Positions 11,703 to 36,160 are shown, counted from the stretch's first letter. The stretch is DNA of 64,000 nt from a virus (IMGVR_UViG_3300020414_000008:96001-160000), one strand, 5' to 3'. Numbers and translations are program-made. The notes: a model not told the origin generated them from the letters alone.

Positions 11703-13300
<1,598 letters not shown>

Positions 13301-13301
<1 letters not shown>

Positions 13302-27538: not shown

Positions 27539-27612
27539 GGACCCGTAGCTCAGTTGGATAGAGCATCTGCCTTCTAAGCAGACGGTCACAGGTTCGAATC
27601 CTGTCGGGTTCA
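27539..27612 (+). tRNA. tRNA-Arg(TCT)
   Basis: Acceptor GGACCCG/CGGGTTC, anticodon loop CTTCTAA, GTTCGAATC; no CCA encoded. Confidence 0.95.
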
Positions 27613-27671
27613 CAATTTATTAAATATATTTTAATATTTATATAATAGTTAACTAAATAAAAACAATTGTT

Positions 27672-27941
27672 ATGAGTAAAGTTTCAAGAAGATTATACCA
27701 AGCCGTAGAGGCAAAGTATACAGCAGATATCATGGACGCAAAAGCAAGACTATCAGTCTACTTTGAGAATCCTGTAGCTATTGGGGAACACCCACAACAC
27801 ACAGAAGAAATCGACAAACTTATCGGACAACTTGAAAGTGCAACAGGAAAGTTAGAAACACTTTCTGAGTACTTTGGAAAAGAATACGGTCACGATATCC
27901 CTGTATCTGAATCAGACGAAAAAGAAATCTTAAAAGGATAA
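27672..27941 (+). CDS. hypothetical phage protein
   Basis: YFENPVAIGEHPQ motif. Confidence 0.6.
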   Translation: MSKVSRRLYQAVEAKYTADIMDAKARLSVYFENPVAIGEHPQHTEEIDKLIGQLESATGKLETLSEYFGKEYGHDIPVSESDEKEILKG

Positions 27942-27948
27942 ATTCGTA

Positions 27949-28022
27949 GGGGATATAGCTCAGATGGCTAGAGCACTACGCTTGCACCGTAGGGGTCGTG
28001 AGTTCGAGTCTCACTATCTCCA
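27949..28022 (+). tRNA. tRNA-Ala(TGC)
   Basis: Acceptor GGGGATA/TATCTCC with G3:U70, loop CTTGCAC. Confidence 0.95.
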
Positions 28023-28100
28023 CTATGTTTGTTTGTTTTTGTACATACTTATTATTGATATAAGTGTCTATATAAAAACGTTTTAAAAGGAGAAAGTATT

Positions 28101-28730
28101 ATGTCAATCGCAAATCAATTTAAAGGACTACCAATCGAAGAACTAATCGTTGGTCCACTAACAGGTGTGGCAAAAGGTCAGGCGCAACTAAATGATATTA
28201 CTTGGAAGTACATCTCTGAGGTTGCATTTGAGCCACCTTCAGGAAGTAGTACCCATCGTAAATCAAGAAAAATCGATGTTGAACTAAACAGGTATATAAA
28301 GGACTCGGAAACAGGTGAATTAAAGTTACAACAAATTCAATCTATGATTCCTATGTTACCGTTAGTACCACTACCAACATTAGCAGTTACATCTGCAGAT
28401 GTTGATTTTACTATGGAAGTTCATGAATCAACCTTGTCTAAGAATACAAGTGATTCATCATTCGAAACATCAGTTCAGGCTTCAGGTGGATTTTGGGGAG
28501 TTAAGTTTAAAGCCTCTATGACAGGTAAAGTAGCAACTCATAAAGAGAATACAAGAAAAACTGACAACTCAGCTAAGTACAATGTTAAAGTACACGCAGA
28601 ACAACTACCACAAACTGAAGGTATGGGTAAACTAAACGATATGTTACACATGATGATGGAACCAACTGTAGTAGGTATGGAAGACCCAACAACAGGAGTA
28701 GCGACACCATCAACAGGTTCAGCAGGATAG
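28101..28730 (+). CDS. DUF2589-like protein
   Basis: FKGLPIEELIVGPL..AKGQ..L; PML.LVP.P.L; DNSAKYNVKVHA.Q.P..EG..KL. Confidence 0.65.
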   Translation: MSIANQFKGLPIEELIVGPLTGVAKGQAQLNDITWKYISEVAFEPPSGSSTHRKSRKIDVELNRYIKDSETGELKLQQIQSMIPMLPLVPLPTLAVTSADVDFTMEVHESTLSKNTSDSSFETSVQASGGFWGVKFKASMTGKVATHKENTRKTDNSAKYNVKVHAEQLPQTEGMGKLNDMLHMMMEPTVVGMEDPTTGVATPSTGSAG

Positions 28731-28741
28731 TCCATAACTAA

Positions 28742-28773
28742 TTTGGAAAATTGAAATATTTTTTGTATATTAG
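28742..28773 (+). promoter_or_regulatory. Bacteroidota-type promoter
   Basis: TTTGG 28742, TATATTAG 28766. Confidence 0.6.
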
Positions 28774-28805
28774 TAAGAAGTAAAAAAATAAGTTATAGTT
28801 AAAGC

Positions 28806-29315
28806 ATGGCTAAGGTTAATTTAGAAGAACTACTTGGTGGTCTACAAGAGGCCTCACAAGTAGTTCTTTCTATACAAGAAAGACAACACATCAATACCAT
28901 CTCAAAGTATTTTGATAAAGATGGTACACCAATCACTCAAAAGTTTAGAATCGGTGACAGGGATATAGAGATACCACTCTACATTCTTGCGGACCATTCA
29001 TCTGTTGGGTTAGATAAGTTGGATATTGAGTTCCAAGCAAGACTATTGCCAGGAAATACAACTAAACCATCAGCACTCAAAAAGAATTTATTACCTATCT
29101 TTCAAAGACAAAAACAAAAAGGTAATGACAAGTACAAACATCAGATTAGTAATATCTCAGTTGATGGTAACAGTCCTGACAAGGAAGGTGTTGCTAAAAT
29201 CAGTATACATTTTAAGAAAGATAATAAACCCGAGGCGGTTTCTCGATTAGTAGATATGTTAATAGCGAAAATGGATGACCCGACTCATAAAGTTATAGAG
29301 AATGGCGATTCCTGA
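28806..29315 (+). CDS. DUF2589-like protein (second paralogue)
   Basis: LEELLGGLQEA, IPLYIL..S..LD.L.IEF, PEAVSRLVD parallel the upstream gene. Confidence 0.6.
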   Translation: MAKVNLEELLGGLQEASQVVLSIQERQHINTISKYFDKDGTPITQKFRIGDRDIEIPLYILADHSSVGLDKLDIEFQARLLPGNTTKPSALKKNLLPIFQRQKQKGNDKYKHQISNISVDGNSPDKEGVAKISIHFKKDNKPEAVSRLVDMLIAKMDDPTHKVIENGDS

Positions 29316-29583
29316 GTTAGAATTACCAAATAGTAAGAAAGGGAAACCTATGGAAAAAGAGCAAGATACTACTAACACAAAGGTAAGTAGTAACGGTAAA
29401 CAAAGATTACGAATTAGTATGTTTGTAATCTCATGTTTTGCTTTTACATTGGTTTGGATATTCTTATCAATGCACTTTGACAAAGGTCTTAACGCAGAAT
29501 GGAAAGAACTTCTATTATTGTTGTTAGGTGCATTAATCGGAAACTTCAACCAAGTAATTAATTATTGGTTCAAAGATAAGTAG
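29302..29583 (+). CDS. two-TM membrane protein, holin-like
   Basis: Two TM helices ending LLGALIGNFNQVINYWF. Confidence 0.5.
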   Translation: MAIPELELPNSKKGKPMEKEQDTTNTKVSSNGKQRLRISMFVISCFAFTLVWIFLSMHFDKGLNAEWKELLLLLLGALIGNFNQVINYWFKDK

Positions 29584-29584
29584 T

Positions 29585-29788
29585 ATGCCTTTACCATGTC
29601 CGAGTTGTACTACACCGTTAGATTTAACTTTAGAATTTATTCTAAAGAATCCTGTATCGGTTTGTCCACATTGTCAAACTGTAATGAACTTCAATGTAGA
29701 TAAAAGTATACAGAAAGAGTATAATCAGGCGTTACAAAACATAGAGGACGTGAAAAAGAAATACAGTAAGATAGCTAAGTTTAAATAA
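29585..29788 (+). CDS. zinc-ribbon protein
   Basis: CPSC...CPHC. Confidence 0.65.
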   Translation: MPLPCPSCTTPLDLTLEFILKNPVSVCPHCQTVMNFNVDKSIQKEYNQALQNIEDVKKKYSKIAKFK

Positions 29789-29789
29789 T

Positions 29790-29861
29790 GCTCGGTTCGT
29801 CTAACGGTTAGGACTTCAGGTTTTCATCCTGGCAATAGGGGTTCGATTCCCCTACCGAGTA
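29790..29861 (+). tRNA. tRNA-Glu(TTC)
   Basis: Acceptor GCTCGGT/ACCGAGT, loop TTTTCAT, GGTTCGATTCC. Confidence 0.93.
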
Positions 29862-29873
29862 CAAATAAATGTT

Positions 29874-30500
29874 ATGTTAAGATACGATATAATAAACAAA
29901 GTAATAGAAGTAAATGGGTTTACAAAGTACCTTGAGATTGGTGTATGTAATCCTGTAGATTGTTTTGATAAAGTTAATTGTGAACTCAAACATGGTGTCG
30001 ACCCTGGCTATGAGTTTGAAGAAAACCCTGTTACATACCAAATGGAGTCCGATACGTTCTTTGAGTATTTAAGTGAACATGACCCTAATAGAAAGTATGA
30101 TGTAATCTTTATCGATGGTCTACATAAATCATATCAAGTTAAAAAGGATATAGAAAATTCTTTAAGAGTTTTAAGTCCAAACGGATATATTTTATTACAC
30201 GATTGTAATCCACCAACCTCACATATGGCAAGAGAAAACTACAGAACTGAATACGGGTATGAACCGTGGAATGGAACTGTATGGAAGGCGATATACAATC
30301 TAAGAACAACAAGAAAAGACTTACACGTTTGTGTTGTTGATACCGATTGGGGTATCGGTGTTGTAAAACGTAACGACCTCTTTGATACTAAACTTGTGTG
30401 GAATCATAATGAGTTTTATGAGTTTAATATCATGGACGCAAACAGAGAAGAAGATTTAGGTTTAATTACTATAGAACAATTTTTACAAGATGTGGGATGA
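29874..30500 (+). CDS. class I SAM methyltransferase (Methyltransf_24-like)
   Basis: YLEIGV, GVDP, DVIFIDGLH, LLHD. Confidence 0.85.
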   Translation: MLRYDIINKVIEVNGFTKYLEIGVCNPVDCFDKVNCELKHGVDPGYEFEENPVTYQMESDTFFEYLSEHDPNRKYDVIFIDGLHKSYQVKKDIENSLRVLSPNGYILLHDCNPPTSHMARENYRTEYGYEPWNGTVWKAIYNLRTTRKDLHVCVVDTDWGIGVVKRNDLFDTKLVWNHNEFYEFNIMDANREEDLGLITIEQFLQDVG

Positions 30501-30770
30501 ACCATATTCACCATGGAATATAAAAAGGGATTCTGAAAAAATCCTTATATTGTGGAGTCTCATTGAGAACTCTAAGACAATGACACAGAGACAAAGAGGG
30601 GATGTGTGGGCAGTGTTACAGGGTATAATAGCATACACTGACAAAGGTATGAACTTAGAACCCCATCATCGTAAGTATTTAAGAGAACAATGGGACAGAG
30701 CATGGAACTCCCAAAAAGATAATAAAGTAAAACAAGATATAGCAGAGTGGCTAAATGAACTACCTTTTTA

Positions 30771-31169
30771 ATGATGAAACTAATAACAACACACCCAATT
30801 AAGAAATCAGATTTAGGACTACACAACAATTTGTTTGGTGGTAAACTTTTAGCATGGATTGATGCTGCAGGAGCGGCGTTTACTACTGAGTATGTGGATA
30901 GTCCGAGACTCGTAACTGTTATGATTGATAAATGTATATTTAAGAAACCTGCTAAAGAAGGACAGTTACTAAAGATATATGGAAAGATAAAAGAAGTTGG
31001 TAAAACATCTATAACTGCATATCTTGAAGCAAGAGCACATAATGTGTATGACGGTAATCAAAAATTAATATTATCCACGTCAATAAAATTTGTTAGGATT
31101 GATGAAGGTGGTGACCCTATTCCAATCCATCAAAGAATCAAGGATAAATTTGAGAAAGAAGAAAAATGA
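30771..31169 (+). CDS. acyl-CoA thioesterase (hotdog fold)
   Basis: NLFGGKLLAWID...VTV.ID...FKKP...VGKTS. Confidence 0.85.
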   Translation: MMKLITTHPIKKSDLGLHNNLFGGKLLAWIDAAGAAFTTEYVDSPRLVTVMIDKCIFKKPAKEGQLLKIYGKIKEVGKTSITAYLEARAHNVYDGNQKLILSTSIKFVRIDEGGDPIPIHQRIKDKFEKEEK

Positions 31170-31603
31170 TTTATTGGTTTTACGGACAACCTGGCGCAGG
31201 TAAGACAACACTCGGTAACGCATTAGAAGAACGTCTAAACTTCCATCACTCACACCAAAAAACAATCAGAATAGATGGTGATGAAATGAGAGAAATATTT
31301 CAGAACAAAGATTATTCTGAACAAGGTAGACGTAACAACTTAAGAAAGGTTAACGACCTTATTCGTTTCTTACATCACAAAGGATTCACAGTTATTGTAT
31401 CAGTTGTTGGTCCATATCAAGATGTAAGAGACGAGATACACGACCTCGACCCTATGATGATTTATACATACACAACTGAAATCAGGGGACGAGAACATTA
31501 TCATACTGACGACTTAGAGATTGGTAAGTATGATGTTTGGATGAACACAGACAACAGATTAATAGAGGATTGTATAAATGAAATACTCACTTTTCGTAGG
31601 TAG
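31166..31603 (+). CDS. cysC: adenylyl-sulfate kinase-like protein
   Basis: WFYGQPGAGKTT, IDGDEMR, YS..GR..N, VS...PY...R. Confidence 0.75.
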   Translation: MIYWFYGQPGAGKTTLGNALEERLNFHHSHQKTIRIDGDEMREIFQNKDYSEQGRRNNLRKVNDLIRFLHHKGFTVIVSVVGPYQDVRDEIHDLDPMMIYTYTTEIRGREHYHTDDLEIGKYDVWMNTDNRLIEDCINEILTFRR

Positions 31604-31916
31604 ATATCAACCATGGCACAATGGACATAGATGGTTAATAGACCAAAGATTAAATGAAGGTAAGAACGTTTGTATAGCAGTTAGAGACGAACACCCTGAC
31701 GAAACCCACGAGTGGTACAGTGGAAAGATTGTACACAATATCAAAGCAGAATTAAACGATTTAGTAAACGAAGGTAGGGTGAAAGTTATAGTGATACCTG
31801 ACATTGAATCAATCAATTATGGTAGGACAGTTGGATACGAAGTAATCGAACACGAACCACCAAAAGATATCTACAACATATCAGCATCAAAGATTAGAAA
31901 GGAAATGGGAAAATAG
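31578..31916 (+). CDS. HIGH-family nucleotidyltransferase
   Basis: GRYQPWHNGH, ISASKIR. Confidence 0.8.
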   Translation: MKYSLFVGRYQPWHNGHRWLIDQRLNEGKNVCIAVRDEHPDETHEWYSGKIVHNIKAELNDLVNEGRVKVIVIPDIESINYGRTVGYEVIEHEPPKDIYNISASKIRKEMGK

Positions 31917-31940
31917 TATATATTTATTTCTTTATGAGAA

Positions 31941-32285
31941 ATGAGAATGAATATAACTATCGTACCCTACAAGTTGCCCGAATCCGTACCGACTCCAAAA
32001 GAGGAGTGTGGCTGGATTGCTCTACACGATAATAAAGCGATAGGTTGGAACTCATTACTATTTTTATCCCACAATACAGTAAAGTTTGCTAATGCATTTG
32101 TAGAAGAAGAATATAGAGGTAATGGAATCTACAGAATGTTATGGGACGCCAGATGGAAATGGTGTCAAGAAAACCTTAAAGGATATGATGTAATAACGTA
32201 CTGTCTACCAACAACACTTAACTTCTACAGAGAAAAAGGGTGGTCCGAAGGACATACATCTACATTAATGTCGTCAAAAATTTAA
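31941..32285 (+). CDS. GNAT acetyltransferase
   Basis: FVEEEYRGNGIY; FYREKGW. Confidence 0.8.
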   Translation: MRMNITIVPYKLPESVPTPKEECGWIALHDNKAIGWNSLLFLSHNTVKFANAFVEEEYRGNGIYRMLWDARWKWCQENLKGYDVITYCLPTTLNFYREKGWSEGHTSTLMSSKI

Positions 32286-32337
32286 CAAAACTTTAACATT
32301 TAAAGTTTGGATATTAACGTTTTTATGCTTATCTTTA
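32281..32337 (+). promoter_or_regulatory. TTTAACA-repeat promoter element, copy 6
   Basis: TTTAACA 32281 and 32292, TTTGG 32306, TATCTTTA 32330. Confidence 0.75.
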
Positions 32338-32342
32338 CTATG

Positions 32343-32437
32343 TAGTTGTGGGGACTCTAAAGTCCCTCGTCATTGAATCCAATGGACCTGACGTTAAACG
32401 GAGTAACCGATACCCCCCTCGGGGGGTGGTGAAACTA
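32343..32437 (+). ncRNA. candidate structured leader RNA (multi-hairpin junction)
   Basis: Closing TAGTT/AACTA plus hairpins GGGACT/AGTCCC, CGTCA/TGACG, CGG/CCG, TACCCCC/GGGGGTG. Confidence 0.5.
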
Positions 32438-32447
32438 AGGAGAAAAA

Positions 32448-32615
32448 ATGAGTAAGAAAAAAGAATCATATCAAGACGAACTTGACTTCAACGGGGGTTG
32501 GACCCGTGGTGAAGCGAGTCATCACATTGGTAAGAAGACAACTGAACAAACTCACAAGTCTAAAAAGACTTATTCTCGAAAGGAGAAACATAAGAAAAAT
32601 TTAACAATTTCTTAA
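32448..32615 (+). CDS. 55-aa ArfA/BrfA-like basic protein (not in ORF track)
   Basis: AAGGAG upstream; C-terminal HKSKKTYSRKEKHK. Confidence 0.55.
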   Translation: MSKKKESYQDELDFNGGWTRGEASHHIGKKTTEQTHKSKKTYSRKEKHKKNLTIS

Positions 32616-32656
32616 CATTAGAAATTTGGAAATAAGTAAAAATTATATTATCTTTA
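32600..32656 (+). promoter_or_regulatory. TTTAACA-repeat promoter element, copy 7
   Basis: TTTAACA 32600, CTTAACA 32611, TTTGG 32625, TATCTTTA 32649. Confidence 0.75.
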
Positions 32657-32673: not shown

Positions 32674-34800
32674 ATGGGAAATATGTATAAATCAAATCTA
32701 AATTATTCATCCTTCTGGCTCGACAAGTCTATTTGGGACGAGGATGATGACCAATCAAAAGTAGAAAAGAAATCAAATGACTTAATGAAACTGATGTCCT
32801 ACAAAAGGAGTATCGGTAACTTCGTAAGTATTGTAACAGGTGAGTCTATTCCTGTGACATTCGATGGTAGGGGTAGTGACTCTTACACCGATGGTAGAGA
32901 GGTTGTTATCTCTGCAAAATTAGACGATAAAGAATTTGACCCCGTGGTTGGTCTCGCACTACACGAGGGTTCTCACATTAAACTTACAGATTTTGATTCC
33001 CTTAAAAGTCTTATGGACCATGATGTATTTCCCGTGTCTATGCAAGATTACATCAAAAAGTTCCAAGACAGTTCAGGAACATTCAAAGGTTATTGGTATG
33101 ATACTTCAATGGGTAATGTAATAAAAGGTAAATTAAAAGACCTTCTTAACTATGTAGAAGATAGGAGAATTGACAACTTTGTTTATTCATCCGCGCCTGG
33201 TTATAGAGGTTACTACGAGTCGATGTACAAAAAGTATTTCCACTCTAATGTAGTAGACAAGGGTCTTAAGTCTTCAGAACACAGAGACGAGACGTGGGAG
33301 TCTTATATGTTTAGATTGATTAATATCACTAACAAAAACAGAGACCTCAACGCTCTTAAAGGGTTAAAAAAGATTTGGAATCTTCTTGACCTTAGAAACA
33401 TTTCAAGACTAAAAAATACAGATGACTCTCTTGAGTTAGCAGGTAAGATTTTTATGGTCATCCAAAAGAATGTTAATGAAGATGTGGACCAAACACCACA
33501 ACCACAAAAAGGTAATGGTGGTGAAGATGGTGATACTGATGGTAAGTCCGATGTATGTGATTCAGAATCTAAATCAACAGGTGATGGTAAACCAATGACA
33601 GGTAAGGGTCAAGGTAAAGGTACCGACTCTAACGGTGATGGTAAGGACGATGGTTCTACTGACAAGAAGGGTTCTATGTCAAGTGGTCAATCAAACAAGA
33701 ATGGGGCAGGTGGTCAACACCAACCACTGAATGACAGACAAAAAAAGATGTTAGAGAACGCTATTGAAAAACAAAAGAAGTTTCAGAATGGTGATATCTC
33801 TAAAAAGAAAATATCTAAAGCAGATAAAAAGAAGATTGATACTCTTGACCAAGCGGATATCAAGACAGAGGTTACAGGTAAAGGTCTTGAACAAGGTTAT
33901 TGGAGAAACCAATCACAAGGTGTTCAAACTTATGTTATCAACAACATGACTCAACAGTTAATTGAGTCGGGTCTGATTGACCACTTAGGTACTTGGAGAA
34001 CTGATTCAAACAATGTTGCAGTTAACAAGGGTATTATGTTAGGTACTCAGTTAGGTAAGAAACTTAAAACAAGAAACGAAGAGAGAGTTCTTCAGACTCC
34101 AAGAATGAAGAGTGGTAAGTTGAACGGTAGAATGTTACACGAGATTGGTTTCGGTAACTTTGATATCTTTGACCAAATCAACATCAATACCGCGACACCA
34201 TCGTTGTTACATATATCGATTGACGCAAGTTCTTCAATGAATGGTGACAAGTGGTACAACACTCAGACCGCCGCAGTAGCAATCGCTAAAGCAGCATCAA
34301 TGACAGAGAATATGAATGTTGTTATATCTTACAGAGGTATTTACTACAATAGAGAAAGTAGACAATGTCAACCTTTGATGTTGGTTGCATACGATTCGAG
34401 AAAAGATAAGTTCCAAAAGATACAAAACTTATTCAAGTTTATTTCACCAAGTGGTACAACACCCGAGGGTCTTTGTTTTGAAGCAATACTAAAAGAGTTA
34501 ACTAAGACCAAGAACGGTGAAGAGAGTTATCTAATCAACTTCTCAGATGGATGGCCTGGTTTTGATAACAGAGAAATTAGTTACGGTGGTCAATACGCAG
34601 TAGACCATACAGCAGAACAAGTCAAGAAAATCAGACAATCAGGTGTATCAGTTCTTTCTTACTTTATCTCTGATGGATACTTCGGAAACAGTAAGACTCA
34701 GTTTGAGAAAATGTATGGGAAGGACTCAGAGTTCATTGATGTAAACAATGTGACTCAGTTAGCTAAGACATTAAATAAAAAGTTTGAAGTTAAAATTTAA
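32674..34800 (+). CDS. HExxH + VWA domain protein (CobT-like)
   Basis: LHEGSH, NYVEDRRID, low-complexity linker, MIDAS DASSSM, GTTP, SDG. Confidence 0.8.
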   Translation: MGNMYKSNLNYSSFWLDKSIWDEDDDQSKVEKKSNDLMKLMSYKRSIGNFVSIVTGESIPVTFDGRGSDSYTDGREVVISAKLDDKEFDPVVGLALHEGSHIKLTDFDSLKSLMDHDVFPVSMQDYIKKFQDSSGTFKGYWYDTSMGNVIKGKLKDLLNYVEDRRIDNFVYSSAPGYRGYYESMYKKYFHSNVVDKGLKSSEHRDETWESYMFRLINITNKNRDLNALKGLKKIWNLLDLRNISRLKNTDDSLELAGKIFMVIQKNVNEDVDQTPQPQKGNGGEDGDTDGKSDVCDSESKSTGDGKPMTGKGQGKGTDSNGDGKDDGSTDKKGSMSSGQSNKNGAGGQHQPLNDRQKKMLENAIEKQKKFQNGDISKKKISKADKKKIDTLDQADIKTEVTGKGLEQGYWRNQSQGVQTYVINNMTQQLIESGLIDHLGTWRTDSNNVAVNKGIMLGTQLGKKLKTRNEERVLQTPRMKSGKLNGRMLHEIGFGNFDIFDQININTATPSLLHISIDASSSMNGDKWYNTQTAAVAIAKAASMTENMNVVISYRGIYYNRESRQCQPLMLVAYDSRKDKFQKIQNLFKFISPSGTTPEGLCFEAILKELTKTKNGEESYLINFSDGWPGFDNREISYGGQYAVDHTAEQVKKIRQSGVSVLSYFISDGYFGNSKTQFEKMYGKDSEFIDVNNVTQLAKTLNKKFEVKI

Positions 34801-34852
34801 CAATAATTTAACATTAGAAATTTGGAATTGTGAACCTAATTCACTATCTTTA
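34796..34852 (+). promoter_or_regulatory. TTTAACA-repeat promoter element, copy 8
   Basis: TTTAACA 34796 and 34807, TTTGG 34821, TATCTTTA 34845. Confidence 0.75.
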
Positions 34853-34897
34853 GAGAGTAATATTAATAATGAGAAATAATAATTTAAAACAAAGTCT

Positions 34898-36160
34898 ATG
34901 AAAGCACAAAAATCAGTTTTTGGAAAAGTAGTTCAGATAGATGACCTCTATTTGTTCGAAGATTCGGCAGGTGTTAAGTTCAACATCCCCGAGTTCAATG
35001 AAGAGGGTACCAACCTCTATAAAAGGGTAAAGTCAGCGTGTAATAATCCTGCGAAGTGGGGTTTCAAAATCAGAGTCAGAGGTAGACTTTCTGATGGTGA
35101 GATTGTTTACAACAGAGTTCCTGCTTCAACCGTTGAACAGAAACCCGAACCTGTTGGTAACTTCAACAAACCTAACGGTGGTCTGATGTCTATGTTATGG
35201 GAACCAACACCAAAGGGTGTCGCTTCTAAAGAAATGACTTCAGATGTCCTTAACTTTATTCATAACGAAGTCGATGGTTTGAAACCAAAGATGTTGTTCA
35301 TGAAATCTCTAAAGTGGAAGTATCTAATCAGAAACATCCTTAGAGGTAAAAATATTATGATGACAGGTCCTGCTGGTTGTGGTAAAACTATGGCAGCGAA
35401 AGCAGCGGCTAATTCCCTTGAAGGTTACAACACCTTCATTATTAACTTGGGTGCAACTCAAGACCCGAGAACAACCCTTATCGGAAATACTCAGTTCGAT
35501 ACTAAGAAGGGAACAGTGTTCAACTCTTCACCATTTGTGAAAGCAATCCAAACTCCAAACACGGTGGTGGTCCTTGATGAGTTGACGAGAGCACACCCTG
35601 AAGCTCACAACATCCTAATGACAGTTCTTGACCAAGGTCAAAGATACTTGAGATTGGATGAAGCCGCTGACGCTCCTGTTATCAAAGTTGCAGATGGAGT
35701 ATCCTTCATCGCATCAGCAAACATCGGTAATGAATATACTGCGACGAGAGCACTCGATAGAGCTATTCTTGACAGATTTACTGTCATTGAAATGGACACC
35801 TTGACTAAGGACGAAGAGTCTGAGTTACTTCAGATGATGTATCCTTCAGTTGATAAGGATGTTATTTCTTCTGTCGCTGAAATTACTTCGATGACAAGAA
35901 ATGACGTAATGTCAGAGACTCCTAAGTTGACTAACTCATTGTCAACAAGAACCGCAGTTGAGATTGGTTCTCTACTTTATGATGGTTTTGAATTAGGTGA
36001 AGCAGCTGAGATTACAATCTATCCACTGTTCGACCAAAGTGGTGGTGCTCAATCTGAGAGAGTGTTCATGAAACAATACATTCAGAAGTTCTTAGGTGAG
36101 ACTCCACAAGACGAAGACTTGTTTAATGTAGAATCAGAAGACGTTAGTAATCCTTTCTAA
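34898..36160 (+). CDS. MoxR/CbbQ/CobS-like AAA+ ATPase
   Basis: GPAGCGKT, VVLDELTR, SAN, LDRAILDRF, STR. Confidence 0.9.
   Translation: MKAQKSVFGKVVQIDDLYLFEDSAGVKFNIPEFNEEGTNLYKRVKSACNNPAKWGFKIRVRGRLSDGEIVYNRVPASTVEQKPEPVGNFNKPNGGLMSMLWEPTPKGVASKEMTSDVLNFIHNEVDGLKPKMLFMKSLKWKYLIRNILRGKNIMMTGPAGCGKTMAAKAAANSLEGYNTFIINLGATQDPRTTLIGNTQFDTKKGTVFNSSPFVKAIQTPNTVVVLDELTRAHPEAHNILMTVLDQGQRYLRLDEAADAPVIKVADGVSFIASANIGNEYTATRALDRAILDRFTVIEMDTLTKDEESELLQMMYPSVDKDVISSVAEITSMTRNDVMSETPKLTNSLSTRTAVEIGSLLYDGFELGEAAEITIYPLFDQSGGAQSERVFMKQYIQKFLGETPQDEDLFNVESEDVSNPF

What the first reader, a model, noticed from the sequence alone, without database searches (positions are those of the whole stretch)
32448..32615. 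Unannotated ArfA/BrfA-like ribosome-rescue peptide
Seen: MSKKKESYQDELDFNGGWTRGEASHHIGKKTTEQTHKSKKTYSRKEKHKKNLTIS*, below the 60-aa cut-off, with its own promoter and structured leader. Known: ArfA has K.KKGKGSY.RK.KH and BrfA a KHK tail; these insert into the empty mRNA channel and recruit RF2. Inference: a phage-encoded ribosome-rescue or ribosome-binding factor, perhaps controlled by the leader RNA.
Basis: partly seen in the sequence, partly recalled or inferred. Interest (0 to 1): 0.7.

Follow-up and report, generated by a model that had tools for sequence, protein, structure and literature searches.

The report
Phage ArfA-like ribosome-rescue mini-protein
A marine Bacteroidota-type phage carries a real, conserved 55-residue basic protein whose tail resembles the part of the bacterial rescue factor ArfA that plugs the empty mRNA channel of stalled ribosomes, so it is probably a virus-made ribosome-rescue factor, though this is untested.

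Summary
The 55-codon ORF at 32448-32615 (+) is real: it translates as reported, has many homologues, and varies mainly at third codon positions. The family was found only on phage or metagenome contigs, not in 185,579 species genomes or in GenBank phages.

It is not a member of ArfA, BrfA or ArfT by any profile test. Its direct similarity to ArfA barely exceeds a reversed-sequence control.

Three results still point to ribosome rescue:
- True ArfA genes occur in several cultured phages.
- The family is homologous (hhalign 95.7%) to a second phage family, typified by gp147 of Flavobacterium phage immuto. In 21 of 22 loci that family has a covarying terminator hairpin inside the reading frame just after the basic tail, the arfA/brfA non-stop design. 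It also matches ArfA better than the control does.
- The two families never co-occur in the 14 genomes examined.

The window's family ends in a normal stop codon. Its last codons double as the promoter of the next gene.

The structured leader is a 97-base insertion specific to this strain, so leader control is not supported.

Best reading (about 0.5): a constitutively made, ArfA-like factor that binds the mRNA channel. This scan has flagged similar ArfA-like phage peptides on other DNA.

The parts
32293..32310 (+). Upstream promoter element of the recurrent phage class TTAACA-N8-TTGG. Its TTTG probably serves as the -33 element.
   Evidence: The motif occurs 9 times in the window, all on the + strand, against 0.33 expected. 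The same element stands upstream of the homologous gene in relatives.
32330..32337 (+). -7 box-like element TAnnTTT(A/G), about 20 nt after the TTTG. This is the Bacteroidota sigma-A promoter type.
   Evidence: Read from the sequence and aligned with TAnnTTTG boxes in relatives. Assigning it to the Bacteroidota promoter consensus rests on general knowledge.
32351..32447 (+). A 97-nt insertion, specific to this lineage, that forms the 5' leader. It holds two GC-rich hairpins and an AAGGAG ribosome-binding site.
   Evidence: It is absent from L002 (98% identical protein) and from the other relatives, where the start codon follows the -7 box within about 10-15 nt. Fold energy is -33.6 kcal/mol with a z-score of -1.3, and the ribosome-binding site and AUG are unpaired.
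32448..32615 (+). Gene for the 55-residue basic protein (stop codon included).
32505..32540 (+). Residues 20-31, the nearly invariant core motif GEASHHIGKK and the only confidently predicted helix.
   Evidence: AlphaFold2 gives a helix at 20-31 with block pLDDT 83. G21 is kept in 60 of 61 homologues and E22 in 55 of 61.
32547..32600 (+). Residues 34-51, the basic tail HKSKK-x-Y-x-RK-x-KHK. It aligns to ArfA residues 31-48, the mRNA-tunnel segment.
   Evidence: BLASTP to E. coli ArfA gives 8 of 20 identities. hhalign places it in the same register. Sub-threshold DUF7230 match at residues 34-51. The gp147-like profile matches the same stretch, 32547-32597. ArfA tunnel residues are taken from PMC5378476.
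32612..32629 (+). Promoter element of the next gene. It overlaps the last codon and the stop codon of the small gene.
   Evidence: The last ~30 nt of the ORF are invariant at the DNA level in 10 relatives, while third positions vary elsewhere. It is a copy of the motif counted.
32674..34800 (+). Neighbouring gene c0, 708 residues. It has an N-terminal domain with a conserved H-E-x-x-H motif, a disordered linker and a C-terminal VWA domain with an intact MIDAS site (NorD-like).
   Evidence: It lies directly downstream in most loci of the window's own subfamily. The fold is nearest to the NorD VWA domain and the Rea1/MDN1 MIDAS domain.
34898..36160 (+). Neighbouring gene c1, a 420-residue AAA+ ATPase of the MoxR/CbbQ/NorQ type. 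It has its own copy of the promoter motif at 34808-34825.
   Evidence: Pfam AAA_5 at 8.5e-18 and CbbQ_C. phrog_249 at 1.6e-23. Promoter copy.

Best explanation
The gene encodes a phage-made, ArfA-like ribosome factor.

Proposed mechanism (inferred, not shown): the 18-residue basic tail (residues 34-51) enters the vacant mRNA channel of ribosomes stalled at the 3' end of broken messages. The conserved N-terminal helix (GEASHHIGKK) sits in the A site. There it either recruits a host release factor to free the peptide, or otherwise clears or marks the ribosome.

This branch differs from arfA, brfA and its own sister family in Flavobacterium phages. It ends in an ordinary stop codon and has a host-type promoter of its own, so it would be made constitutively during infection. 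That is when phage- or defence-driven mRNA cleavage should produce many non-stop ribosomes.

Shown: the gene is real and conserved, occurs only in phages, has this tail motif, is homologous to the non-stop family, and has its own promoter.

Inferred: ribosome binding, release-factor dependence and benefit to the phage.
For: 1. The gene is real and under purifying selection.

2. The tail aligns without gaps to the ArfA tunnel segment, 8 of 20 identities. hhalign gives the same register at P 3.6e-4, against column shuffles that reach at most 15.1 where the real score is 24.4. The tail ends at the position equivalent to ArfA N47, the shortest active ArfA. It includes the K-H pair that ArfA and BrfA both use to contact 16S rRNA U534.

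3. Cultured phages encode true ArfA above the Pfam cut-off: pf16, Arash, J2-1, Bambus, XM05, RXM and Cr30. A pelagiphage ArfA is reported as expressed (PMC12753301). Like the window protein, the ORFs of six of the seven stop within about 10 residues of the basic tail, with no long hydrophobic extension; only RXM continues for some 20 more residues.

4. The family profile scores 16.8 bits on the ArfA of phage J2-1. None of 200 tail-shuffle sets reached that score, and the best reversed score was 11.0. The J2-1 protein passes both the ArfA and DUF7230 cut-offs.

5. The family is homologous to the gp147-like family of Flavobacterium phage immuto. hhalign gives 95.7%, P 8.5e-9 and score 41.5, against 23.9 for the reversed control and a shuffle maximum of 17.2. 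BLASTP gives 16 of 31 identities.

6. In 21 of 22 gp147-like loci a hairpin plus T-run lies inside the ORF just after the tail. The stems covary, and the downstream protein sequence and stop position are not conserved. This non-stop design is otherwise known only from arfA and brfA.

7. The gp147-like family matches ArfA at 77.7% with score 27.5, against 14.6 for the reversed control.

8. The two phage families are mutually exclusive in the 14 genomes examined. None of the 13 records with the window's family carries ArfA, a DUF7230 member or SmpB.

9. Hosts of this kind lack arfA: 0 of 1,956 genomes of the Fibrobacterota-Chlorobiota-Bacteroidota (FCB) group have it (PMC11633108).

10. AlphaFold2 predicts one short helix and an extended basic tail, not a globular DNA-binding fold.
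Against: - No profile places the protein in ArfA, BrfA or ArfT. Pfam ArfA gives no hit at E<=1 for 41 members, or at E<=10 in the phage genome, and a PDB profile search found nothing.
- The direct profile-profile score against ArfA is barely above the reversed-sequence control: 24.4 against 23.2, and 25.5 against 21.8. The direct similarity could therefore come from local composition.
- The invariant ArfA motif KGKGSY-x-R is absent, as is the L-F segment that contacts RF2.
- The H of the K-H pair is kept in only 33 of 61 homologues.
- This family has no internal terminator at the equivalent place in any of 52 loci. The strongest functional clue is therefore borrowed from a sister family.
- Many members carry an extra acidic, aromatic C-terminal tail that no known rescue factor has.
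- The link to ArfA is transitive and rests on about 20 lysine-rich residues.
- There is no experimental evidence.
Confidence: 0.5

Rival explanations
1. It is a small basic host-takeover protein that binds nucleic acid or another acidic target (DNA, nucleoid, RNA polymerase, membrane) and has nothing to do with stalled ribosomes. On this reading the likeness to the ArfA tail only reflects lysine-rich composition.
For: - The direct ArfA comparison barely exceeds the reversed control.
- No Pfam, NCBIfam or PDB family matches.
- The gene sits among small early genes with host-type promoters, where phages keep many takeover factors.
- The segment around G-E-A-x-x-x-I-G loosely recalls a helix-turn-helix.
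Against: - AlphaFold2 gives one helix and no three-helix bundle, and no helix-turn-helix family scores at E<=1.
- The residue order of the tail, not only its composition, is conserved and matches phage ArfA J2-1 beyond shuffles.
- The sister family has the non-stop gene design. That design makes sense only for a factor tied to trans-translation.
Confidence: 0.22
2. It is an accessory, substrate or adaptor of the neighbouring NorD/NorQ-like VWA plus AAA+ remodelling pair. For example, its invariant glutamate might be offered to the MIDAS metal site.
For: - In most loci of the window's subfamily (about 30 of 33) the gene lies directly upstream of c0 and c1, while the upstream neighbours vary.
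- All three genes carry the same promoter class.
- c0 has an intact MIDAS site, and its fold is nearest to NorD and Rea1 MIDAS domains, which bind a ligand glutamate.
- G21-E22 is nearly invariant.
- All family-bearing phage records that are at least 67% complete also carry c0.
Against: - In the other subfamily the gene lies 23-43 kb from c0. Adjacency is therefore not required and may be inherited gene order.
- Each gene has its own promoter.
- The homologous gp147 of phage immuto lies among unrelated small genes.
- This reading explains neither the ArfA-like tail nor the non-stop design of the sister family.
Confidence: 0.1
3. It binds the ribosomal mRNA channel but acts as a blocker or hijacker rather than a rescuer. 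It might exclude tmRNA-SmpB or ArfB from stalled ribosomes, or park ribosomes, to the phage's advantage.
For: - The tail evidence is the same as for the main reading.
- The ArfA segment that recruits RF2 is missing.
- The gene lacks the feedback control by trans-translation seen in the sister family.
Against: - No precedent for such a factor was found in the papers searched.
- Blocking rescue would also trap ribosomes that the phage needs.
- The relation to families that look like genuine rescue factors argues for rescue.
Confidence: 0.1

Closest known systems
ArfA (alternative ribosome-rescue factor A, YhdL; Pfam PF03889), including the phage-encoded ArfA of Pseudoalteromonas phage J2-1 (ATN93434.1), Pseudomonas phage pf16, Salmonella phage Arash and Caulobacter phage Cr30
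   Same: - Small size, 40-70 residues.
- Disordered apart from a short element.
- A C-terminal basic tail of the same length and register, with Y-x-R-K-x-K-H shared with enterobacterial ArfA and with the J2-1 phage ArfA.
- Like most of the phage ArfAs (six of seven), it stops shortly after the tail.
- It is carried by large myoviruses in early-gene regions near tRNA genes.
   Different: - No match to the ArfA profile.
- The invariant G-K-G of KGKGSY-x-R is replaced.
- The N-terminal N-x-x-K-A...L-F segment that contacts RF2 is absent, replaced by W-x-x-G-E-A-S-H-H-I-G-K-K.
- There is no non-stop mRNA control.
- The presumed hosts are Bacteroidota rather than Proteobacteria.
gp147 of Flavobacterium phage vB_FspM_immuto (YP_010114536.1, annotated hypothetical protein) and its 22 metagenomic relatives
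   Same: - Homologous by profile comparison (95.7%).
- Nearly identical tail, HKSKK-x-Y-x-RK-x-KHKK.
- A shared A-S-x-H motif before the tail.
- Phage-only distribution.
- The two families were never found in the same genome.
   Different: - gp147-like genes have a different N-terminus and lack a 7-residue insert (G-K-K-T-T-E-x).
- They carry a conserved intrinsic terminator inside the ORF.
- The window family has a normal stop codon and, in many members, an acidic aromatic C-terminal extension.
Pfam DUF7230 (PF23876), a family of unknown function
   Same: The tail (residues 34-51) matches profile positions 18-35. The J2-1 phage ArfA passes both the ArfA and the DUF7230 cut-offs. The two bacterial members examined have an ArfA-like N-P-x-A-K segment followed by a basic tail.
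   Different: Scores are 16-18 bits against a cut-off of 27. Only the tail matches.
BrfA (Bacillus subtilis YqkK) and ArfT (Francisella)
   Same: These are release-factor-dependent rescue factors of similar size, with a basic C-terminal segment in the mRNA channel. BrfA shares the K-H contact, and brfA has an internal terminator like the sister family.
   Different: There is no detectable sequence relation: a PDB profile search that includes BrfA found nothing, and no KGG-type Pfam hit was seen. The N-terminal architectures differ.

Membership tests
ArfA (PF03889) | Match to the curated family profile above its cut-off (25.5 bits) | tested here: not met
   No hit at E<=1 for any of 41 members. 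No hit at E<=10 in the phage genome. No hit at E<=1 in 12 related phage records. As positive controls, E. coli ArfA scores 89.7 bits and seven phage ArfAs score 27-72 bits.
ArfA (PF03889) | Invariant motif K-G-K-G-S-[YF]-x-R in the tunnel segment | tested here: not met
   29 diverse bacterial ArfAs all have the motif. The family has K-S-K-K-x-Y-x-R instead, keeping Y and R but no G-K-G.
ArfA (PF03889) | N-terminal hydrophobic segment (N-x-x-K-A...L-F) that extends the RF2 beta-sheet | tested here: not met
   This segment is absent. A different conserved motif occupies residues 8-30.
ArfA (PF03889) | Basic C-terminal tail long enough to fill the mRNA tunnel (ArfA residues 31-47), including the K-H pair | tested here: met
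   In an ungapped alignment, residues 34-51 correspond to ArfA residues 31-48. K47-H48 are present in the window protein. Across 61 homologues the K is kept in 58 and the H in 33.
ArfA / BrfA | Gene expressed from a non-stop mRNA, by RNase III cleavage or an intrinsic terminator inside the ORF | tested here: not met
   There is no terminator in or after the ORF. None of 52 family loci has one at the equivalent place. The conserved 3' end is a promoter. The feature is met in the homologous gp147-like family, in 21 of 22 loci.
ArfA / BrfA / ArfT | Release-factor-dependent peptidyl-tRNA hydrolysis on non-stop ribosomes | not testable with these tools
   This needs in vitro translation or genetic assays.
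BrfA | Sequence relation to the B. subtilis BrfA chain in the solved ribosome complex | tested here: not met
   A profile search of all PDB chains at E<=10 returned nothing.
DUF7230 (PF23876) | Match above the curated cut-off (27 bits) | tested here: not met
   Best scores are 16.3-17.8 bits over the tail only. 12 of 41 members match at E<=1, the best at 0.0018.
gp147-like phage family (unnamed) | Profile-profile homology beyond composition controls | tested here: met
   hhalign gives 95.7% and score 41.5, against 23.9 for the reversed control and a shuffle maximum of 17.2. BLASTP gives 16 of 31 identities at E 1e-6.

The most novel reading that the evidence does not exclude
Phages of Bacteroidota, whose hosts have no ArfA, carry their own superfamily of ArfA-like, release-factor-dependent rescue factors.

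One branch keeps the self-limiting non-stop gene design. This branch has lost it and is made constitutively. The phage would then actively recycle ribosomes stranded on host mRNA that it, or an mRNA-cleaving defence system, has cut.

Its distinct N-terminal helix would define a new way of engaging the A site or a release factor.
Probability: 0.4. Interest if true: 0.75.

Novelty: new variant of a known kind. Interest (0 to 1): 0.55.

Why it matters
Ribosome rescue is essential in bacteria. ArfA-type back-up factors are thought to be confined to some Proteobacteria and the Bacillus subtilis group.

If this family works as proposed, several things follow:
- Viruses supply such factors to hosts that lack them.
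- Rescue of non-stop ribosomes becomes a step in phage takeover, or a counter to defences that cleave mRNA.
- The family offers a new, minimal ribosome-binding peptide with a different A-site module for structural study.

It also gives a concrete function to test for a widespread set of unannotated phage micro-genes. A cultured relative is available for this work: gp147 of phage immuto on Flavobacterium sp. LMO8.

Tried and rejected
- **Complex prediction.** I modelled the peptide with the N-terminal and VWA domains of c0 plus Mg. The score was 0.00, which gives no verdict and counts neither for nor against binding.
- **Family and structure searches.** Pfam, NCBIfam and PHROGs scans of the peptide gave only sub-threshold hits (DUF7230, phrog_2701). 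A PDB profile search found nothing. The ESM Atlas gave only unnamed phage clusters and a weak DUF7230 row.
- **Cellular genomes and cultured phages.** A pattern scan of 185,579 species genomes produced 66 pattern matches, none confirmed. tblastn of two family members against 50,697 GenBank phage records found nothing, possibly partly because of the low-complexity filter.
- **Long hits in the representative search.** These are repeat proteins that each match weakly many times (P0222, with 72-residue repeats). I judged them chance matches.
- **Helix-turn-helix idea.** Dropped after the fold prediction.
- **Hairpin with the stop codon in its loop.** Variants break the pairs without compensation, and the sequence is a copy of the promoter motif.
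- **Other rescue or collision genes.** The window's phage has no Smr and no RF-1/ArfB family gene, and no SmpB or tmRNA was found.
- **Metatranscriptomes.** One 152-nt contig in one marine RNA library covers 32477-32628 at 100% identity and runs through the stop codon. DNA carry-over cannot be excluded, so I do not count it as evidence of expression. Parts without cover mean nothing.
- **J2-1 ArfA relatives.** A search for intermediates returned only the J2-1 protein itself.

Full report
**Observation**

The ORF at 32448-32615 (+) exists and translates exactly as reported.

It belongs to a conserved family:
- 88 clusters in the 5.8-billion-protein collection.
- 51 representative clusters at E<=1e-3 in an exhaustive profile search of 1.84 billion proteins.
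- 51 loci in IMG/VR.

A pattern scan of 185,579 species genomes confirmed no relative. tblastn against GenBank phages also found none. Where context could be read, it is phage-like.

The window comes from a 180,769-bp viral record estimated to be 94% complete. The record encodes baseplate, GroEL-like and glucosyltransferase genes. Its nearest cultured relative is Flavobacterium phage vB_FspM_immuto.

Among 11 close relatives, variable sites fall 14, 10 and 37 times on codon positions 1, 2 and 3. Pairwise codon differences are 796 synonymous against 357 non-synonymous. The frame is therefore translated and under purifying selection.

**Anatomy of the protein**

The 61-sequence alignment A3 gives this signature:
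- an aromatic residue at position 8;
- K-L-x-[WF] at positions 11-14;
- the nearly invariant segment G-E-A-S-H-H-I-G-K-K at 21-30;
- T32;
- the tail H-K-S-K-K-x-Y-x-R-K-x-K-[HS]-K at 36-49.

AlphaFold2 with this alignment predicts one helix, at residues 20-31, and coil elsewhere (mean pLDDT 67.7).

There are two subfamilies:
- The window's type ends a few residues after the tail.
- The other carries an acidic, aromatic C-terminal extension.

**Transcription signals**

The motif TTAACA-N8-TTGG occurs 9 times in the window, all on the + strand, against 0.33 expected. Copies stand before this gene (32293), before the next gene (32612) and before the one after that (34808). A TAnnTTT(G/A) box follows about 20 nt after the TTTG. 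By general knowledge, this fits the Bacteroidota sigma-A promoter type.

The last ~30 nt of the ORF are invariant at the DNA level in ten relatives, although third positions vary elsewhere. The reason is that these bases are the promoter of the downstream gene. The apparent hairpin around the stop codon is not maintained by compensatory changes.

No intrinsic terminator lies in or after the ORF.

The GC-rich leader is a 97-nt insertion (32351-32447). It is absent from a relative with a 98% identical protein and from all other relatives. Its fold is unexceptional (z = -1.3) and leaves the ribosome-binding site and the AUG unpaired. Control by the leader is therefore not a property of the gene family.

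**Direct tests against known rescue factors**

- Pfam ArfA gives no hit for any of 41 members at E<=1, none in the phage genome at E<=10, and none in 12 related phage records.
- A family profile finds nothing among all PDB chains, which include ArfA and BrfA.
- BLASTP to E. coli ArfA aligns residues 29-48 with ArfA 26-45 without gaps, with 8 of 20 identities.

I collected 29 diverse bacterial ArfAs from a sample of 301 Pseudomonadota genomes. Their invariant core is L-F...E...K-G-K-G-S-Y-x-R. The R-K-x-K-H continuation occurs only in some lineages.

hhalign of the family against these ArfAs gives 37% probability, P 3.6e-4 and score 24.4. Column shuffles average 8.5 and reach at most 15.1. The reversed ArfA alignment, however, scores 23.2. 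The direct similarity is thus not separable from a local lysine-rich patch, and membership of ArfA is not supported.

**Phage precedent**

E. coli ArfA finds true homologues in cultured phages. All seven that I extracted pass the Pfam ArfA cut-off:

| Phage | ArfA score (bits) |
|---|---|
| Pseudomonas pf16 | 72 |
| Salmonella Arash | 69 |
| Pseudoalteromonas J2-1 | 41 |
| Brevundimonas Bambus | 39 |
| Erythrobacter XM05 | 37 |
| Citromicrobium RXM | 30 |
| Caulobacter Cr30 | 27 |

Further points on these phage ArfAs:
- A 2025 paper reports an expressed ArfA-domain gene in pelagiphage HTVC027P (PMC12753301).
- Six of the seven stop within about 10 residues of the basic tail; only RXM runs on for some 20 more residues.
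- The J2-1 protein lacks the G-K-G motif, has a tail very like the window's, and also passes the DUF7230 cut-off.
- The window family's profile scores 16.8 bits on the J2-1 protein. None of 200 sets of tail-window shuffles reached this (maximum 14.8), and the best reversed score was 11.0.
- Two bacterial DUF7230 members look ArfA-like.

**The decisive link**

The family profile finds a single relative in phage immuto: gp147, a 49-residue protein annotated as hypothetical. BLASTP to the window protein gives 16 of 31 identities with one 7-residue gap, at E 1e-6.

gp147 has 22 relatives in IMG/VR. In 21 of the 22 loci a GC-rich hairpin followed by a T-run lies inside the ORF, directly after the basic tail. 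The stem sequences differ between loci but stay complementary. The protein sequence downstream is not conserved, and the stop codon wanders, giving ORFs of 44-108 residues. The tool's own terminator scan finds the site in immuto.

This is the non-stop mRNA design described for arfA and brfA. There it makes the factor accumulate only when trans-translation is overwhelmed (PMC6881298).

Profile comparisons:

| Comparison | Probability | Score | Reversed control | Other |
|---|---|---|---|---|
| Window family vs gp147-like | 95.7% | 41.5 | 23.9 | P 8.5e-9; shuffles 9.8 +/- 2.2, max 17.2 |
| gp147-like vs 36 ArfAs | 77.7% | 27.5 | 14.6 | |

The window family is therefore a relative of a phage family that has both an ArfA-like tail and the ArfA/BrfA gene design.

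The window family itself has no terminator at the equivalent position in any of 52 loci.

The two families do not co-occur. In 13 phage records with the window family, the only match to the gp147-like profile, to DUF7230 or to ArfA is the family gene itself, and no SmpB is present. Phage immuto has only gp147.

**Context**

In most loci of the window's subfamily the gene lies directly upstream of two genes:
- a ~700-residue protein with a conserved H-E-x-x-H motif and an intact MIDAS VWA domain;
- an AAA+ ATPase of the MoxR/NorQ type.

The VWA fold is nearest to NorD and to the Rea1/MDN1 MIDAS domain.

In the other subfamily the VWA gene lies 23-43 kb away. Each gene has its own promoter. A functional tie is possible but not required.

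**Interpretation**

The best-supported reading is an ArfA-like factor that binds the mRNA channel, made by the phage and in this branch expressed constitutively. I put it at about 0.5.

- Shown: a real gene, phage-restricted, with a conserved tail in the ArfA register, homologous to the non-stop family, with its own promoter.
- Inferred: ribosome binding, recruitment of a release factor by the distinct N-terminal helix, and benefit during mRNA decay or against defences that cleave mRNA.

Hosts of this group lack arfA: 0 of 1,956 FCB-group genomes have it, while 1,426 have arfB (PMC11633108). A phage-borne factor would therefore add a pathway.

The rival readings are a generic basic takeover protein, an accessory of the VWA/AAA+ pair, and a channel blocker.

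**Novelty**

Phage ArfA homologues are already annotated and have been mentioned once in the literature. This scan has also flagged ArfA-like micro-genes of Bacteroidota phages on other DNA. Of those notes, I re-tested here the claims about the internal terminator and about DUF7230.

What this family adds is a distinct branch with a 7-residue insert, a new conserved A-site-side motif, no non-stop control, and a 3' end that doubles as the next gene's promoter. I class it as a new variant of a known kind.

Noticed in passing
window 32674-36160: This is a NorD/NorQ-like pair. One gene encodes a 708-residue protein with a conserved H-E-[GA]-S-H motif near residue 97, a disordered acidic/basic linker and a MIDAS VWA domain. 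The other encodes a MoxR-type AAA+ ATPase with an extra ~140-residue N-terminal domain. PHROGs labels the ATPase 'porphyrin biosynthesis' (CobS-like), but the function of the pair in these phages is unknown.
   Followed up: partly
window 5099, 5936, 9143, 18276, 19898, 32293, 32612, 34808, 39973: Nine + strand copies of the promoter-class motif TTAACA-N8-TTGG, against 0.33 expected. Most share the longer form TTAACATT-N5-TTTGG. This is probably one temporal class of phage promoters read by the host sigma factor.
   Followed up: partly
L175:3986-4138 (Pseudomonas phage pf16), L177:3953-4117 (Caulobacter phage Cr30), L178:2417-2641 (Salmonella phage Arash): True ArfA-family ORFs above the Pfam cut-off are left unannotated in pf16 and Cr30. 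In Arash the ORF is annotated as 'ribosomal protein L2'. In Cr30 it lies between two RNA ligase genes, and in Arash it lies just after a tRNA cluster.
   Followed up: partly
L023-L052 (second subfamily), C-terminal 10-20 residues of the family protein: Many members carry a conserved acidic, aromatic C-terminal extension of the form W-x-x-Y-D-D-D-x-W-Y-P-D-x-x-F. It is absent from the window protein. It may be a second interaction motif or an autoinhibitory tail.
   Followed up: no
L053:5847-6053 and equivalents (cluster c8): In the second subfamily an upstream ~62-codon ORF overlaps the first 52-55 nt of the family gene in another frame. The next gene in turn overlaps the family gene's end by 8-14 nt.
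   Followed up: no
L053:5220-5441, L058:4869-5087 and cluster c17 in about 9 loci: A ~73-residue gene with a weak Smr-domain hit lies within 0.2-2.5 kb of the family gene in the second subfamily. Smr nucleases cleave mRNA at collided ribosomes. The window's own phage has no Smr match.
   Followed up: partly
window 29874-32285: A run of small enzyme genes lies upstream: a methyltransferase, a 4HBT thioesterase, an APS-kinase-like P-loop protein, a cytidylyltransferase-like protein and a GNAT acetyltransferase. It may be a nucleotide or cofactor modification module.
   Followed up: no
window 11706-13301: A phage-encoded GroEL-like chaperonin (phrog_5725, E 4e-161).
   Followed up: no
window 27539-29862: Three tRNA genes, Arg(TCT), Ala(TGC) and Glu(TTC), lie 2.6-5 kb upstream of the small gene.
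   Followed up: no
L003:2660-3000: A relative with a 98% identical protein has a different, ~270-nt insertion at the same place between promoter and start codon. This spot therefore seems to be a hotspot for insertions.
   Followed up: no
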